Source: Octopus vulgaris | Taxonomy: Eukaryota | Length of the DNA stretch: 64,000 bases | Direction: 5' to 3' | Assembly (NCBI GenBank): GCA_951406725.2 | Contig: OX597814.1 | Span: forward strand, 14,136,001-14,200,000 | Part shown: positions 29,145 through 35,365 of the stretch, piece after piece | Position numbering within the stretch: position 1 is the stretch's first letter | How the letters are laid out: every line of letters begins with the position of its first letter | Made by a program: the position numbers and the translations under genes | The notes under the pieces: generated by a model | Told to the model about the DNA's origin: nothing | What the model saw: only the letters and a program-made list of their open reading frames with translations | Database searches by the model: none

Positions 29145-30929
29145 GTCTATCTGTCTGTCTACCTCTCTCTCTCTATCTATCTATCTAGCTAGCTAGCTAG
29201 CTATCCAAATAACAGTCTCTCTACTTTTTTTCCTCTACCTGTCTATCTTCAGTACACCGAAAGGAGTATAAATTACTATAGTCGAGATTGCAAATATTTA
29301 AGCTGCTTGTTGATGAAATCTATTCTTAAGTCGGCCTCAACGGAAGAGTTTCACGGCAGGCAAAACACAGTTAATTTTATGCTCTTCTATGAAACTCCAC
29401 CTTACTGATCTCAACAAAGGACGCAATACCGTGATGTCCGGAGATCTTTGCAGACAAATTGCCCTCGTATTAGCATACAAGTAATATATAGATACTGACA
29501 GATCTAAGGGGAGTGCATAGTGCACATTTAAATCAAGAGGTAAAGGAGACAGGATAGGTTTCAAGAACTGATGATGTGTATGATCAATGCTTGTAAATGT
29601 CTTGTAACCAACATAAATTTTCATATATATTCTTAACATGTATATGAATGAGATCTATGATAGATACAACAAAAGGATGACAAGGCTTGTATTCTGTCTT
29701 ACTTGGCCAGTCGGAGTAATCATCCACACGTTGTCAAATATAAGGATGATTCTGATGATAAAGTTTACAAAGAATTTGGTTACAACTTTAATATATTGCT
29801 TTTGCTTGATCTCCCATATTTGTATCTGAAATAACCATCTGTAGTGCAGTGTCTCCCATCGCAACTAAAATAACTTACGTCTATCCATCATAGTCAGTAA
29901 TATCTCAGCGTACTCGTTTACTTACTTTACTTTACGACAGACGTGGATAATATACTAAATCCACCAGTATTTACACAATCTCTTGCTCTCATGTGTGGCT
30001 TTGCAGGCATTCCACGTTGTAAAGATAAGTTACTCGACGTGCCGGTGTACCGTTGACAACGTGAGCGTGCAACAGATAGAAGCGGTATATTGTGAATTGT
30101 ACTCATGAACGACTATATGTGTTCATCTCTCTCATTTTCTCTCTCACTCTCTTTCTCTCTCACTTTCTCTCTCCCTCTTTCTCTCTCTCTCTCTCTCTCA
30201 AAGAAATTCCATCTTTGTCTGGATTTCAAGTTATATTTACAATCTTAATATAGTATAAAATAATATAATATGAAATAATGAAATGATAGAATATTTAATG
30301 TCCAATCTGATTGAACTAGTACTTTCATGCATTAAACGATGCAATCTTCAGGTTCATGTAGCAGTGGTTACAAATATTATCTTTTACAAGTTACAACTGT
30401 AGTGAGTTGGCTAAATTCTGTGCCTTAAATACATGTATATAGTCTCCAGAACGCTAATTTTTGCAAACTGTATTCTGACCATTCAGTATGTGATTTTGCT
30501 AAATTACTTAAGTTCATTGGTGTTCGGTTTAGGCGTCACAGTTTGCTGAACGTGTCAAGACACCTGTATTTTGACCCGGGGCAAAGCAGTAATTGTTGTG
30601 CTATTTTTAGAAATGTTGTAAAGTACATTTGCCAGGGAACTTTACGTTTCACTTATCATCACCATTATCACCTCTTTTATTATTGTTGTCGTTGTTTCTG
30701 TTGTTGTTGTTGTTGGTGATGGTAGTGGTGTTGGTTGTGGTGGTGTTTGTAGGAGCAGCTGTGTTAATAGAACTTCAAACCCCCAAATAAGATTATTTTT
30801 ACTGACTTTCCTCTTGACCAAGCTAATATCTCCGGCTATCGTCATCATGAGAACCTATAATATTATTGTTGTCAGTGGTAATGGTCGTAGCAGTAGAAAC
30901 AGTACCTCTAAGTATTAGTATTATTGTCT

Positions 30930-33010
30930 ATTTAGCTTGTGTTGGAACTTATTAAGTTCTTTTTTCTGAGTTTTCTCTCAATTTCACTTGGACTGTGTAG
31001 TTTGTAGAATGGAAATATTATATATATTTTCCGACCACATGTTGCTAGATGGTTACTCAAAGGTAACTGACGGACATCTTGGTCTCTAAGTTGCTGTCGG
31101 TGCACACGTGAACGTTCTGATTGTGCATTTCCAGTGTGACCCATATACAGATCTTCACAAAAATTCGGGCATTTGATGCAGTATATTAAATTTCAGCTTT
31201 TGCAGCTCATATTTGCGTTTGCGAATATTTTTCCGGTTTTTGTGTTCATATATTGGCTGGTATGTATGAATTTCCATGTGACACCTCGGCTGACCTTGCA
31301 TTTGTTGCCATTGTTGATTTTTGTTTCTTTTACCACGAATCATAGCTCGATCTGTGATTATATCTTTTAATACTTTGAGTAATCATTGATTGGTTTGATT
31401 TGGCAATGTTGAAGATATTCTGGTGATATGGGTTGTGAGTCATTATAAATGGTATGACTTGTTTCTGTTTTCCCCTTCTTTGGGTTATCCTTAGATGTTG
31501 TGTGTGTATTTTTATAACCCGCTATATGCCATTTTCTATAGGTAGAGACGAATATTTTTGTTTGAGCAAAAGTTCTCTTAGTTCTATTAGGCTTTTTTTC
31601 CCTGATATTCGCATCTTCTACAATAGTACAAATTCATCTGGCTAGACAATATGGGATGTTGCATTTCGTATGTGGTGGATTGCACGACTTAAAATTCAGG
31701 TATTGATGTATGTCAGTGTGTTTGTAGTATATATATATGTGTGTGTGGTAGTGGTGATGTCCTTTTCAATTACCATTATATCTAGGAATGGTAATTTGGT
31801 ACTACTCATCTCCTTTACAAAATAGAGAGATGAGTGTAAGTTGTCCAGGGGGATACTGAACTCTTCCAAAGTATTTAGAGATTCTCTCCAGATTGTGAAA
31901 GAATCATCCAGGTGTCTCTTCCATGCTCTTTCGATATACTTCCTAAATTCAGTGCTAGGTTTCCTCTACTCCTTGATAGAGTTGTGCTAAATATCCCATT
32001 TCAGAGTTCGCGTAAACGGGAGCAAACTTCATTCCCTTCGCCATGCATTTCATTTGGATGTAATTCTTTCAATTGAAGAAGAATGTTTTGTTTTCCAGCT
32101 GACTGTGCTGATATAAATGGCACTGTGAATCTGCTGGAGATCACTTTCTATGTTTTTCTAACCAGTATTTAATCGCCTTTATTCCTAAATCGTGTGGAAT
32201 ATTGGTGTAACGGCTTACCACATAAAAACTAAGAAGAAGTGAATTTGTTTAAGTTGTTTTGGGAAGATGCGACAGGACGTCGATGTCATCCTGGATTAAA
32301 CTGGATGTGCAGATACATAGTGATTTTAAAACAATGTCAAAAAAATTGCTTGGATGGTCCTTGAGTTGTGATGTTTTGAAACGAGGTTGTTGATCTTGTT
32401 CATGATGTGTTGGTCTTTATTTGTAGGTATTTCACAATAGAAGGTTGTTTCCTTCCGTTGGTCCTCAACCAATTCCTTATAGCGTTCTGTATTCATAAGA
32501 ACAATTGCACCCCTTTATCTGCTTGTTTGATTATTATCGTTTGTTCATTTTGTATATATTTAAGTGCTGACATTTCTGATTTGTTAATATTTGACCTAAC
32601 ATTAGTATTGTATCAAAGGGGAACTTTTGACAGGACCTCAATGTATTGGTCAAGATCGTTATTTCTTCCTTTTGATGGGGTAAAATTTGATTTATTCTCT
32701 ACTAGGGATTCATCAATCTCATTAATTTTATTAGAGAAGTATTCTACAAGTCGTAACTTACGACATACATTTTGGATATGCTCCTATAGTTCTTCGTGGT
32801 TGACTGTTGGTGTAGGTGTAAATTCAGTCCTTTTAACAGATGTTGGATTTCCTCATTGTCAAGATCTCTTTTGGATAAATTAATTATTTTCGGATCGATA
32901 CGTTCAGTTGTTTTGGGCATGTTTCCTCTTGGATTTTTTCTTTCTCCGGTGTTTGTGTTCCTGACGCTAAAAACTAGATTTTTCTCTCTTTATGACTTAT
33001 ATTCCTGTTG
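30930..33010 (-). mobile_element. Decayed Penelope-like element (Neptune/Poseidon-type), RT plus C-terminal GIY-YIG
   Basis: IIIKQADKG, RYTNIPHDLGIKAIKYW, KFAPVYAN, WKRHLDDSF, LPFLDIMV, NLIYCIKCP, YMGHTGN..ERSRVHRQQLR. Confidence 0.88.
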
Positions 33011-33018
33011 ATGTATAA

Positions 33019-33086
<68 letters not shown>

Positions 33087-33087
33087 A

Positions 33088-33602
33088 TAAGCAAAAATGC
33101 TAGTTCTAAAATCATTCTAAGGGATCAATGCAGTAGTTGTACTAGCAAGTAATGTTCGTAACCATTCCACCATAGCCATCTGTTCGAACGGACTTTGCTG
33201 CAATTTTTTAACTCCAGGATGACATCTTCTTTGGTTGGTTAACGATGCAGTTGCATCCCAAATATTGCGAGGGGGGCGAACCGCCTACTACCTCCTAGCG
33301 AACCACTGCCATCTCTGGCAGACGATATATCCAGTACTGAAGAGAGGCGGAAATAACGCGATACCAGGCTTGTCTGCTAGTGCCGTCGCTAGAACGTGGT
33401 AGGGGTTAGCTCACATGCTTGCAATATCTCGCATGTAGCTGTGCATCGTTAACCAACTAGAAGCGATGTCCTCTTGGAGTTAAAACATCGCAGTAAAGAC
33501 TATTCGAAAGGACAGCAATGCAGAATTGGCTACGCACATCACTTGTTAGTACAACTACTGCTGGATCCCTTAGATAGATTGCAGAACTAACGCTTTTGCT
33601 TG
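33088..33602 (+). mobile_element. Rod-like foldback element (~215-nt arms) with a hammerhead in the apical loop; retrozyme-like
   Basis: 33088-33301 is reverse-complementary to 33386-33602, e.g. tctaagggatc/gatcccttaga, ttggttaacgatgca/tgcatcgttaaccaa, ctagcga/tcgctag. Confidence 0.8.
33321..33387 (+). ncRNA. Type I hammerhead ribozyme, copy 1 (GAAA mutated to GATA)
   Basis: gacg..ccagta CTGAAGA g aggcggaaataacg c GATA cca ggc ttg TC tgctag..cgtc. Confidence 0.7.
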
Positions 33603-33678
33603 TTGCAAAATTAGTGATTTTATGTAGCTTGAAGTTGCATATATTGCGATCAGAAGCGAGCTACTGTTATCCCAAGTA

Positions 33679-33745
33679 GACGAGGTGTCCAGTACTGAAG
33701 AGAAGCAGATATAGCCCGAAACCAAGCTGGTCTGCTGGTCCCGTC
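33679..33745 (+). ncRNA. Type I hammerhead ribozyme, copy 2 (intact catalytic core; predicted cut after 33732)
   Basis: gacg..ccagta CTGAAGA g..c GAAA cca agc tgg TC tgctgg..cgtc. Stem I ccagta/tgctgg and stem III cca/tgg pair fully; stem II is weak. Confidence 0.85.
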
Positions 33746-33837
33746 GCTAGAAGGTGGTAAGGGTTCGCTCCCCAAACTGGCTAAAGATGTACAACTGCAT
33801 CCCATATATATTTGTGCGGTGTGGGTGCGTTTGTACG

Positions 33838-34205
33838 CACAGGTGTAGCTGTTTGGTAAGAAGTTTGCTTCCCAGCCACATTGTTCTGGGTACAGTCCCA
33901 GTACATGGCACCTTGGGCACGTGTCTTCTACTGTAGGCTTAGGCCGACCAAAGTCTTGTGAGTGGATTTGGTAGATAGAAAGTGAAAGAAGCCCGTGGTA
34001 TATTTATGTATATATATGTATGTATTTGTGTGTCTGTCTTTGTCTCCCCACCATCACTTGACAACCGATGTTAGTGTATTTGTTCCCATGTAATCTAGCG
34101 GTTCGGCAAAGGTGATTAATAGAGTAAGGACTGTGCTTACAAACAATAACTCGACTAAAGGTGGTGCTCCAGCAAGGTCGCTGTCAAACAAGTGAAAGAA
34201 TAAAA
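33838..34205 (+). mobile_element. tRNA-derived SINE, second family
   Basis: ggtaagaagtttgcttccca.ccaca head; ggccgaccaaag.cttgtgagtggatttggtaga and agcggttcggcaaa core. Homologous to 52421 and 59365. Confidence 0.85.
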
Positions 34206-34284
34206 GAATGTGTGTGTGTGTGTGTGGATTGCGTATGTGTGAGTGTCTATTTGTGTATATTTTTAGGCATATATATATATATAT

Positions 34285-34590
34285 ACATAAGAGACCAAAG
34301 TATACGTACGCCGCTATATGCATGTAAAAAAGAATACAAAAATGGACAAGACAACACAAGGATGGGTCATTCGGAGTTTTCCTTGGGACTGGCCAGATTG
34401 GAGCAGTCTCAAGTATAACCAACCGAAACTTCTGATCTAATCTGGAACTCGACTGATGAAACACAACTCCGATGACCCGTTCTTGTTTTGTCTTGTCCAT
34501 TTTTGTATCATCTGTCTTGATGTTTTTTTTTATTCTTTGTATTCTTTTTATATACATATAGCGGCGTACGTATACTTTGTTCTCTTATGT
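34285..34590 (+). mobile_element. Foldback copy of a PLE-like repeat with a permuted hammerhead in the loop
   Basis: Arms 34285-34380 and 34466-34590 are reverse-complementary (acataagaga..gtatacgtacgccgctatatg / catatagcggcgtacgtatac..tctcttatgt). Confidence 0.75.
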
Positions 34591-34592
34591 GT

Positions 34593-34676
<84 letters not shown>

Positions 34677-34899
34677 TTTGCACGAATCTCTTATCCTTTC
34701 ATTTTTTCTTTCTTTCTATCAGCCCCTTCACACTAACTACGTTGTTTCCACTCTTCTTTCTTTCGCTCCCCTCACTCACATTTCCTCGCCTTCCCTTCAT
34801 TCTCACCTTCCCTCCTTTTTCATTTCACCCCCTCCCCTTTATTTTTTCCCTCCCTCCCTAAATCTTCTATCCCTCTGCTTCTACCTCTTTCCTCCCCTT

Positions 34900-35365
34900 T
34901 CACGTGACCGGTGTTCGACCAAGCCTGAACTTACTTTCTTGGTTCGACTACCACCCGTGCCACATCTATATTCCTTCCCATTGATATCATGACCTATGTC
35001 CCTGCCGTAAGGCTTCGCTTCTACACACGTCAGCTTAATTTAATTCGTCCTTCGTCGAAAGACACCTGTTGCTAATGTCCTGTTGTGTGCATTTATATTT
35101 GTGTACCGTTTCTCGGTTTTTTCATCTTCCTTGTATTCGCATACATTCGCGGCTTTCTTCCTAGGAATCTAGTGCCTTTAGCTTAGATTTTCCTTGGGGC
35201 TGGCCAGATTGGAGCAGACTCGAGTATAACCAGCTGAAACTGCAAATCTAATCTGGAACTCGACCGATGAAAGAAAACTCCGAATAACAGGTCCTCGTTT
35301 TTTCTTGTCCATTTTTTGTATCATCTGTCATGATGTTTTGCGTTCTTGTCTCATTTTTAGCATCC
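34900..35365 (+). mobile_element. Longer copy of the same repeat family, with a pyrimidine-rich leader
   Basis: 35188-35335 is homologous to 34377-34525. Confidence 0.7.

What the first reader, a model, noticed from the sequence alone, without database searches (positions are those of the whole stretch)
33088..33803. Rod-like, viroid/retrozyme-like element with a full type I hammerhead at the tip, present as a partial tandem
Seen: a ~515-nt imperfect hairpin whose apical loop holds a small hairpin (ctgcca/tggcag) and a type I hammerhead. Its stem I is extended through an internal loop (gacg/cgtc) and its loop II contains AAAUA. A second, internally deleted copy follows, with an intact CUGAAGA/GAAA/GUC core; the two cleavage positions are 358 nt apart (33374 and 33732). 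Known: metazoan non-LTR retrozymes are tandem repeats with type I hammerheads that yield circular RNAs and are thought to be mobilised by PLEs. Inference: this is a retrozyme-like family whose monomer would be an unusually long, almost unbranched rod. It lies ~80 bp from a PLE.
Basis: partly seen in the sequence, partly recalled or inferred. Interest (0 to 1): 0.85.

Follow-up and report, generated by a model that had tools for sequence, protein, structure and literature searches.

The report
Hammerhead retrozyme bearing Penelope insertion scars
This is a decayed copy of a 359-base repeat with a hammerhead-ribozyme motif, whose long hairpin is two copies joined head to head rather than a viroid-like rod; the family's two fixed ends behave like those of Penelope-like retrotransposons in the same genome, which likely copied it, and a separate LINE family sits at one fixed spot just before the hammerhead.

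Summary
The hairpin (z -17) and two type I hammerhead motifs 358 nt apart are real, but the rod is not the unit. The family monomer is 359 nt with a branched predicted fold. The left arm (33089-33301) is a separate minus-strand copy joined head to head to a 1.33-unit plus-strand copy; the arms decayed independently. The tip hammerhead is broken (GATA for GAAA); the second keeps its core. Of 117 loci, 41 are head-to-head, none tail-to-tail. Outer 3' ends pile up at two CTT|GTT sites 58 nt apart, usually before microsatellites, and 18 of 20 classifiable head-to-head loci use one site at each end. The neighbouring Penelope-like (PLE) family shows the same rule in 16 of 16 pairs. Stem I changes completely but stays paired across four subfamilies. 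Best reading: an extinct non-LTR retrozyme copied by a PLE enzyme that starts internally on both DNA strands; the partner family is not identified, and cleavage and circles are untested. In passing: an L1/Tx1-type LINE inserts about 65 nt before the cleavage site (26 of 30 LINE ends; 13-20 nt duplications), which I did not find in print.

The parts
33017..33088 (.). (TA)n(TG)n microsatellite; likely target tract shared by the retrozyme and the PLE
   Evidence: 34 of 58 outer 3' ends in 44 loci are followed by a dinucleotide repeat
33089..33301 (-). Left arm: separate inverted copy, monomer 56->272, ending at the long 3' site; 84% to family majority
33297..33301 (.). Head-to-head junction with 5-nt overlap
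33297..33773 (+). Partial tandem, monomer 326->85 (1.33 units of 359 nt), 87% to family majority
33331..33380 (+). Hammerhead copy 1, broken (GATA at 33360-33363); site C33374
33540..33548 (+). Short 3'-end site of the family (CTT|GTT, monomer 214; window 33544), read through here
33597..33605 (+). Long 3'-end site (CTT|GTT, monomer 272; window 33601), read through here
33689..33738 (+). Hammerhead copy 2, core intact (CTGAAGA 33695, GAAA 33718, site C33732); stem II and loop II carry changes
33768..33809 (-). Inverted piece of monomer 94-135; the normal right end of the insertion is lost
30200..33014 (-). Neighbouring 5'-truncated, decayed PLE (RT + GIY-YIG family, 82-88% to young copies in the ORF); separate insertion
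30311..30357 (-). Minimal hammerhead-like motif in the PLE 3' region (CTGAAGA ... GAAA, palindromic stem III), read by eye

Best explanation
The locus is a decayed head-to-head insertion of a 359-nt hammerhead repeat (non-LTR retrozyme), likely made by a Penelope-like RT/GIY-YIG enzyme. Shown: monomer length, partial tandems, head-to-head geometry, two fixed 3' ends at CTT|GTT before microsatellites, one long plus one short end per inverted locus, the same rule in a resident PLE family, neutral DNA decay. Inferred: the ancestral RNA self-cleaved and probably circularised; the PLE protein nicked both strands of an (AT)n tract and started reverse transcription inside the RNA, at monomer 272 on one strand and 214 on the other; it ran past the cleavage junction on a circle or uncleaved multimer; the two cDNAs were joined at short microhomologies. 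The 515-nt rod with a hammerhead at the tip is the by-product when the junction falls in the self-complementary stem just upstream of the ribozyme.
For: Monomer 359 nt, circular fold branched, -148 against -101 +/- 5.5 for 100 shuffles. 117 unique loci of 146 fetched: 41 head-to-head, 0 tail-to-tail, 76 one-directional; of 158 outer ends 26 lie exactly at 272, 16 exactly at 214, 72 in the long bin, 46 in the short bin, 40 elsewhere. CTTGTT occurs only at these two sites in the main monomer and both are kept, 58 nt apart, in subfamily C, which is 68% identical. 18 of 20 head-to-head loci with both ends in a bin are long+short, p about 6e-4 by shuffling; young PLE pairs 16 of 16, p 1.1e-4. Arms: of 211 columns 20 changes are left-only, 22 right-only, 3 shared; G-U 14 versus A-C 13. 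CpG sites decay at 0.195 versus 0.087, A>G equals T>C. 26 of 30 motif-picked copies run past the cleavage site, 1 stops within 5 nt of it. Stem I is CCAGUA/UGCUGG (A), UCGCGA/UCGCGA (C), UCUGUG/CACAGA (D), UCCAGA/UCUGGA (E) with the CUGANGA core kept. A purified PLE nicks and extends both strands of AT-rich DNA and starts at two internal sites (PMC11167929); PLEs often carry an inverted 5' copy and a tail at one end only (PMC8557442).
Against: No PLE with DNA similarity to the monomer was found: the neighbouring family shares none and its two ends are 46 nt apart, not 58. The one direct retrozyme-PLE fusion (L207) has a long end on both sides and may be a later deletion. 21 of 41 head-to-head loci were left out of the pair test because an end fell outside both bins, among them this locus, whose right end is rearranged. 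Ends are BLAST alignment ends, and loci are best hits or exact-motif hits, not a random sample. Within the main subfamily there is no covariation beyond shuffles, and the A-versus-C count of 11 compensatory pairs lies within the shuffled range (mean 6, max 13). The active hammerhead fold of the majority sequence is about 3 kcal/mol above its minimum-energy fold. The window's own cleavage-to-cleavage monomer folds no better than shuffles (z +0.4). No long arrays were seen (maximum 2.24 units).
Confidence: 0.85

Rival explanations
1. The unit is a 515-nt rod-shaped, viroid-like RNA with the hammerhead at its tip.
For: The hairpin is very stable; other loci also match most of the 518-nt query (L002 2-517, L008 60-493, C8:24325345 60-488).
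Against: Those loci have different junctions and ends (308/58, 60/340, 39/346 against 56/326 here). 76 of 117 loci have no inverted arm. Both arms are copies of the same strand of the monomer and decayed independently with no G-U excess. No CUGANGA core on the minus strand.
Confidence: 0.03
2. The repeat is mobilised by the L1/Tx1-type LINE found beside it; the inversions come from twin priming.
For: A LINE family is tightly linked to the repeat; L1-type enzymes make 5' inversions (recalled).
Against: The LINE lies inside the repeat with 13-20 nt duplications, so it uses the repeat as target. The repeat has no poly(A) end and no shared 3' tail with the LINE; both outer ends of inverted loci are 3' ends at the two fixed sites, which twin priming does not predict (recalled), and the ends lie in microsatellites like the PLE's.
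Confidence: 0.06
3. A MITE or foldback DNA element with long inverted arms that captured a ribozyme, or inverted pairs formed later by DNA rearrangement.
For: Arms about 78% complementary over 120+ nt; this locus does carry a later small inversion (33768-33809).
Against: No fixed length or fixed junction, most copies one-directional with variable 5' ends, only head-to-head and never tail-to-tail (0 of 117), and unequal ends.
Confidence: 0.04
4. The monomer is simply the pseudo-LTR of an autonomous PLE whose ORF has been truncated away in the copies sampled.
For: Retrozymes are reported to be related to PLE pLTRs (10.64898/2026.07.22.740005); behaviour of ends is identical.
Against: 27 of 44 loci exceed one unit as pure monomer repeats; PLE protein hits occur in only 5 retrozyme loci (L001, L025, L123, L126, L174) and abut the repeat in one; the sequence joined at position 339 proved to be a LINE, not a PLE.
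Confidence: 0.1

Closest known systems
Metazoan non-LTR retrozymes (PMC7229834; mussel repeats of about 350-390 bp)
   Same: Type I hammerhead in a 150-450 bp non-coding repeat, GC under 50% (0.476), no LTR, strongly self-paired predicted circle, hundreds to thousands of copies.
   Different: Only partial tandems up to 2.24 units seen; all sampled copies 83-94% to the majority, so apparently extinct; defined double 3' ends and head-to-head insertions are not mentioned in the passages I read; expression and circles untested.
EN+ Penelope-like elements (PMC8557442, PMC11167929), here a resident family with a CxxC linker (Neptune-like; clade label recalled, not tree-tested)
   Same: Partial tandems, 5' truncation, inverted 5' copy, tail at one end, two internal start sites, microsatellite targets, hammerhead upstream of the start sites.
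   Different: No ORF; full stem III and loop II AAAUA rather than a minimal hammerhead; tail 58 nt against 46 nt (resident PLE) and 30-40 nt (literature).
Retrozymes as non-autonomous PLE derivatives (bioRxiv 10.64898/2026.07.22.740005)
   Same: Same conclusion about the mobilising partner.
   Different: That work argues from co-occurrence and pLTR homology in vertebrates; here the evidence is insertion anatomy in a likely cephalopod, with no pLTR homologue found.
Viroids and rod-like viroid-like circles
   Same: Hammerhead, small size, predicted circular RNA.
   Different: Genomic DNA copies made by reverse transcription, ribozyme core in one polarity only, branched monomer; the rod is a DNA junction product.
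Target-specific Tx1 LINEs (Tx1L, Keno, Kibi, Koshi, Tx1-Mar; PMC4494074)
   Same: For the LINE seen in passing: APE-RT-zf-RVT relatives of about 1150 aa, one fixed target site in a repeat, TSDs of 13-20 nt.
   Different: Target is a hammerhead retrozyme; the passages read list DNA transposons, LTR elements, U2, U5, 5S, satellites and microsatellites.

Membership tests
non-LTR retrozyme | Type I hammerhead core and three stems | tested here: met
   Family majority and 25 of 58 copies have an intact core; stem I stays paired across subfamilies A, C, D, E. Copy 1 in the window fails (GATA).
non-LTR retrozyme | Head-to-tail repeat of about 150-450 bp | tested here: met
   359 nt (A), 351 nt (C); 27 of 44 loci exceed one unit, 4 of 44 hold two intact cores; no long array seen.
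non-LTR retrozyme | Non-coding, no LTRs, GC under 50% | tested here: met
   Longest ATG frame 30-43 aa in A, 93 aa on the minus strand of C; GC 0.476; no LTR-type flanks in 117 loci. PBS/PPT were not searched.
non-LTR retrozyme | Self-cleavage of the transcript | not testable with these tools
   Needs in vitro transcription.
non-LTR retrozyme | Monomeric linear and circular RNA in tissue | tested here: inconclusive
   Only contigs of runs guessed to be RNA; diverse copies, no strand or end information. Indirect: 26 of 30 copies cross the cleavage junction.
PLE-mobilised element | Two internal 3' ends (tail at one end), inverted 5' copy, microsatellite target | tested here: met
PLE-mobilised element | Sequence shared with the pLTR of an autonomous PLE | tested here: inconclusive
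   None with the one PLE family examined; other PLE families of the genome were not examined.
autonomous PLE | RT and GIY-YIG ORF | tested here: not met
   No ORF in the monomer; met only by the neighbouring element.
rod-like viroid / viroid-like RNA | Monomer itself is an unbranched rod | tested here: not met
   Branched circular fold; rod is a head-to-head junction.
rod-like viroid / viroid-like RNA | Ribozymes in both polarities or no DNA stage | tested here: not met
   No CUGANGA on the minus strand; 990-1590 first-look genomic candidates.
MITE | Fixed TIRs, fixed length, fixed TSD | tested here: not met
   76 of 117 loci one-directional; variable 5' ends and junctions.
Tx1 clade (LINE seen in passing) | RT falls in the Tx1 clade | not tested
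   RVT_1 hit; relatives carry PF03372 + PF00078 + PF13966; no tree against named elements, label rests on recalled motifs.
Tx1 clade (LINE seen in passing) | Target-specific insertion with TSD | tested here: met
   26 of 30 LINE 3' ends followed by the target motif; TSDs at 5 of 22 extended loci.

The most novel reading that the evidence does not exclude
A three-party system in an octopod genome: a hammerhead retrozyme is copied by a dimeric PLE enzyme that uses two CUU|GUU start sites, one for each DNA strand, on a circular RNA; and an L1/Tx1-type LINE has specialised on the retrozyme's stem as its target across at least four subfamilies, inserting in sense about 65 nt before the cleavage site so that the host ribozyme trims the LINE transcript's 3' end and leaves target sequence on it.
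Probability: 0.3. Interest if true: 0.78.

Novelty: new member of a known kind. Interest (0 to 1): 0.57.

Why it matters
How animal retrozymes enter DNA has been argued from co-occurrence and homology. This family carries the PLE insertion signature in countable form and names the two nucleotides where reverse transcription should start, so the PLE-retrozyme link can be tested directly with an intact 775-aa PLE protein of the same genome. The one-long, one-short rule (16 of 16 PLE pairs, 18 of 20 retrozyme pairs) also constrains how PLE inverted structures form. It warns that genomic 'viroid-like rods' with a hammerhead at the tip can be insertion artefacts. The LINE that homes beside the hammerhead would be a new target class for site-specific retrotransposons.

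Tried and rejected
Rfam, whole window at gathering and 33000-33900 at E<=10: no ribozyme family. Pfam on six broken PLE frames of the window: nothing useful; an intact copy gave RVT_1 and GIY-YIG. Neighbouring PLE as parent: no DNA similarity. Sequence joined at monomer 339 as parent PLE: it is a LINE. Covariation inside subfamily A: none beyond shuffles; whole-monomer A-versus-C compensatory count not above shuffles. ADAR-type editing trace: none, A>G 0.0353 against T>C 0.0348. Young copies: none among those scored; best pairwise 84-87% to L031, one exact 50-nt hammerhead match in the genome, 37 and 62 exact hits to two short motifs. Linear cleaved monomer as template: 1 of 30 5' ends at the cleavage site. 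Expression: no RNA holder listed; contigs of four runs guessed to be RNA hold diverged pieces, uninformative on strand, ends or circles. A model-based search of the whole genome was not available, so very distant relatives and PLE-linked copies of this hammerhead remain unsearched; on the window the model found only the two known copies. Earlier findings of this scan: three look-ups, nothing. Supplements of the papers were not read; those of the 2026 preprint or PMC7229834 could list octopus retrozymes.

Full report
Observation. The region 33089-33603 folds as one long imperfect hairpin (-249 kcal/mol; 100 shuffles -137 +/- 6.6), and a 116-nt direct repeat with 358-nt spacing carries two hammerhead motifs. 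The second has CUGAAGA, GAAA and GUC intact with cleavage predicted after C33732. The first, at the tip of the hairpin, reads GATA for GAAA and has mismatched stems. Rfam gives no ribozyme hit. The genome is 2.8 Gb in 227 contigs; the best named relative of a LINE found here is from Argonauta hians, so an octopod host is likely (inference).

The unit. A search with the 518-nt hairpin gave 990 first-look candidates, most matching only query 210-518. A majority sequence from 29 loci closes into a 359-nt monomer; folded as a circle it gives a long stem below the hammerhead and a cluster of about seven hairpins (-148; 100 shuffles -101 +/- 5.5). Mapped on this monomer, the window holds a minus-strand copy (56->272) at 33089-33301, a 5-nt overlap, a plus-strand run of 1.33 units (326->85) at 33297-33773, and an inverted piece (94-135) at 33768-33809. 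The left arm is therefore a second copy of the same strand of the monomer, not a complementary half. Against the majority, of 211 columns 20 changes are private to the left arm, 22 to the right, 3 shared and 4 differ both ways; mismatched pairs are G-U/U-G in 14 and A-C/C-A in 13 cases, so nothing preserved RNA pairing. The window's cleavage-to-cleavage monomer folds no better than shuffles. Copies average 88% to the majority (83-94%, 44 loci), decay fastest at CpG and show no A>G excess: an extinct family under neutral decay.

Is it a hammerhead? Inside subfamily A there is no covariation beyond shuffles, as expected of dead copies of one source. Between subfamilies there is: stem I is CCAGUA/UGCUGG in A, UCGCGA/UCGCGA in C (351 nt, 68% identical), UCUGUG/CACAGA in D and UCCAGA/UCUGGA in E (read by eye), each with CUGANGA kept and N7 free. 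A whole-monomer count of 11 compensatory pairs between A and C is not outside the shuffled range. Cleavage itself is untested.

Insertion anatomy. Four searches gave 146 loci, 117 unique: 41 head-to-head, 76 one-directional, none tail-to-tail by outer segments. Of 158 outer 3' ends, 26 fall exactly at monomer 272 and 16 exactly at 214; 72 fall in 256-282, 46 in 200-220, 40 elsewhere. CTTGTT occurs only at these two places, and subfamily C keeps both, again 58 nt apart. 34 of 58 ends in the first 44 loci are followed by a dinucleotide repeat. In the 20 head-to-head loci with both ends in a bin, 18 have one long and one short end (p about 6e-4); 21 loci were left out because an end lay outside the bins. 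5' ends ignore the ribozyme site: 26 of 30 motif-picked copies run past it, 1 stops within 5 nt, 3 are shorter, which fits a circular or uncleaved multimeric template. Other loci with a hammerhead inside a hairpin (L002, L008, L146) have different junctions and ends.

The PLE comparison. The neighbour at 30200-33014 is a decayed copy of a family with young identical 4271-bp tandem units and a 775-aa RT + GIY-YIG frame. It shares no DNA with the monomer, and a microsatellite separates its truncated 5' end from a normal retrozyme 3' end. But it behaves alike: a minimal hammerhead-like motif about 140-185 nt upstream of two 3' ends 46 nt apart, (AT)n targets, head-to-head pairs with overlaps of 2-9 nt. 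I picked 16 opposite-strand neighbour pairs; all 16 have one long and one short end (p 1.1e-4). In PMC11167929 (parts 1-2 of 4 read) a purified PLE nicks and extends both strands of AT-rich DNA, starts at two internal sites that define the tail, does not need ribozyme cleavage and is predicted to be a dimer. PMC8557442 (passages) describes an inverted 5' copy, a tail often at one end only and (TA)n bias. The rod follows from this: two cDNAs from opposite nicks joined at their 5'-side ends. One locus (L207) fuses the repeat directly to this PLE family, but with two long ends and possibly by deletion. The true partner family is not identified.

A LINE that targets the repeat. At least ten loci join monomer 339 to a shared upstream sequence, which encodes a LINE RT whose relatives have APE, RT and zf-RVT domains; the Tx1 label is from recalled motifs. 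In five of 22 extended loci the retrozyme resumes upstream and ends at 351-357, a 13-20 nt duplication, with private changes in both copies at L230 and L232. Searched by its own 3' end, the LINE is followed by the target motif in 26 of 30 loci, in subfamilies A, C, D and E. Most loci show no upstream half within 7-8 kb, so some may be composites moved later. The window copy has no such LINE.

Comparison with print. Non-LTR retrozymes are known, including 350-390 bp mussel repeats (PMC7229834, passages), PLEs are the proposed movers (PMC7761336, passages), and a 2026 preprint supports this by co-occurrence and pLTR homology (10.64898/2026.07.22.740005, parts 1-3 of 5), without the words tail, initiation or mollusc. 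An Octopus vulgaris repeat paper has no mention of hammerhead, ribozyme or retrozyme in its main text (PMC13282606, word search). Tx1 targets listed in PMC4494074 (passages) do not include retrozymes. Searches: (listings only, except as named); supplements and subscription papers were not seen.

Verdict. Observation partly confirmed; the rod-monomer idea refuted; the element is a new member of the non-LTR retrozymes (confidence 0.85 for PLE-made head-to-head insertion). Interest 0.57, carried by the countable PLE signature and the retrozyme-targeting LINE rather than by the hairpin.

Noticed in passing
L228, L230, L231, L232, L236 and L238-L267 (e.g. G000:C5:29512964-29514850): An L1/Tx1-type LINE inserts in sense at monomer 338/339, about 65 nt before the cleavage site. 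LINE 3' ends searched alone: 26 of 30 followed by the target motif, 23 of 30 also by a CUGANGA-like core, 12 of 30 BLAST-adjacent to subfamilies A/C. TSDs of 13-20 nt at 5 of 22 extended loci, two with private changes in both copies; most other loci show no upstream half within 7-8 kb. 559 candidates. Not found in print.
   Followed up: partly
L243, L254-L257, L259-L263, L265 (D); L266, L267 (E); L250: Further divergent retrozyme subfamilies found through the LINE: different but paired stem I, palindromic stem III, D 61% to A over 150 nt, apparently the same two end regions.
   Followed up: partly
L130, L138, L152-L176: Subfamily C, 351 nt, 68% to A, 1242 first-look candidates, older (74-90% to its majority on main segments), same two ends.
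   Followed up: yes
L207:233-2660 (G000:C2 about 61130030-61132460): Head-to-head retrozyme fused with a 2-nt overlap and no microsatellite to a 5'-truncated copy of the neighbouring PLE family; template switch or later deletion; both outer ends long.
   Followed up: partly
window 30200-33014 and L052-L057, L090-L121: Very large PLE family (11530 first-look candidates) with identical 4271-bp tandem units and intact 775-aa frames, so recently active; 16 of 16 inverted pairs have one long and one short end.
   Followed up: yes
window 34252-34623 and 34680-35365: Another repeat family (2795 candidates) with a hammerhead-like CTGANGA ... GAAT ... GTC motif, variable at N7, ending before (AT)n; 34252-34623 has inverted arms; no hit to the PLE protein in 20 loci.
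   Followed up: partly
window 33840-34200: SINE-like repeat directly after the rearranged right end; recognised from memory as a common octopus repeat, not tested.
   Followed up: no
L031:1602-1660 in runs X1, X2, X5, X10: Contig depth is highest over monomer about 100-160 and 180-240, with loose ends that look like further subfamilies.
   Followed up: no
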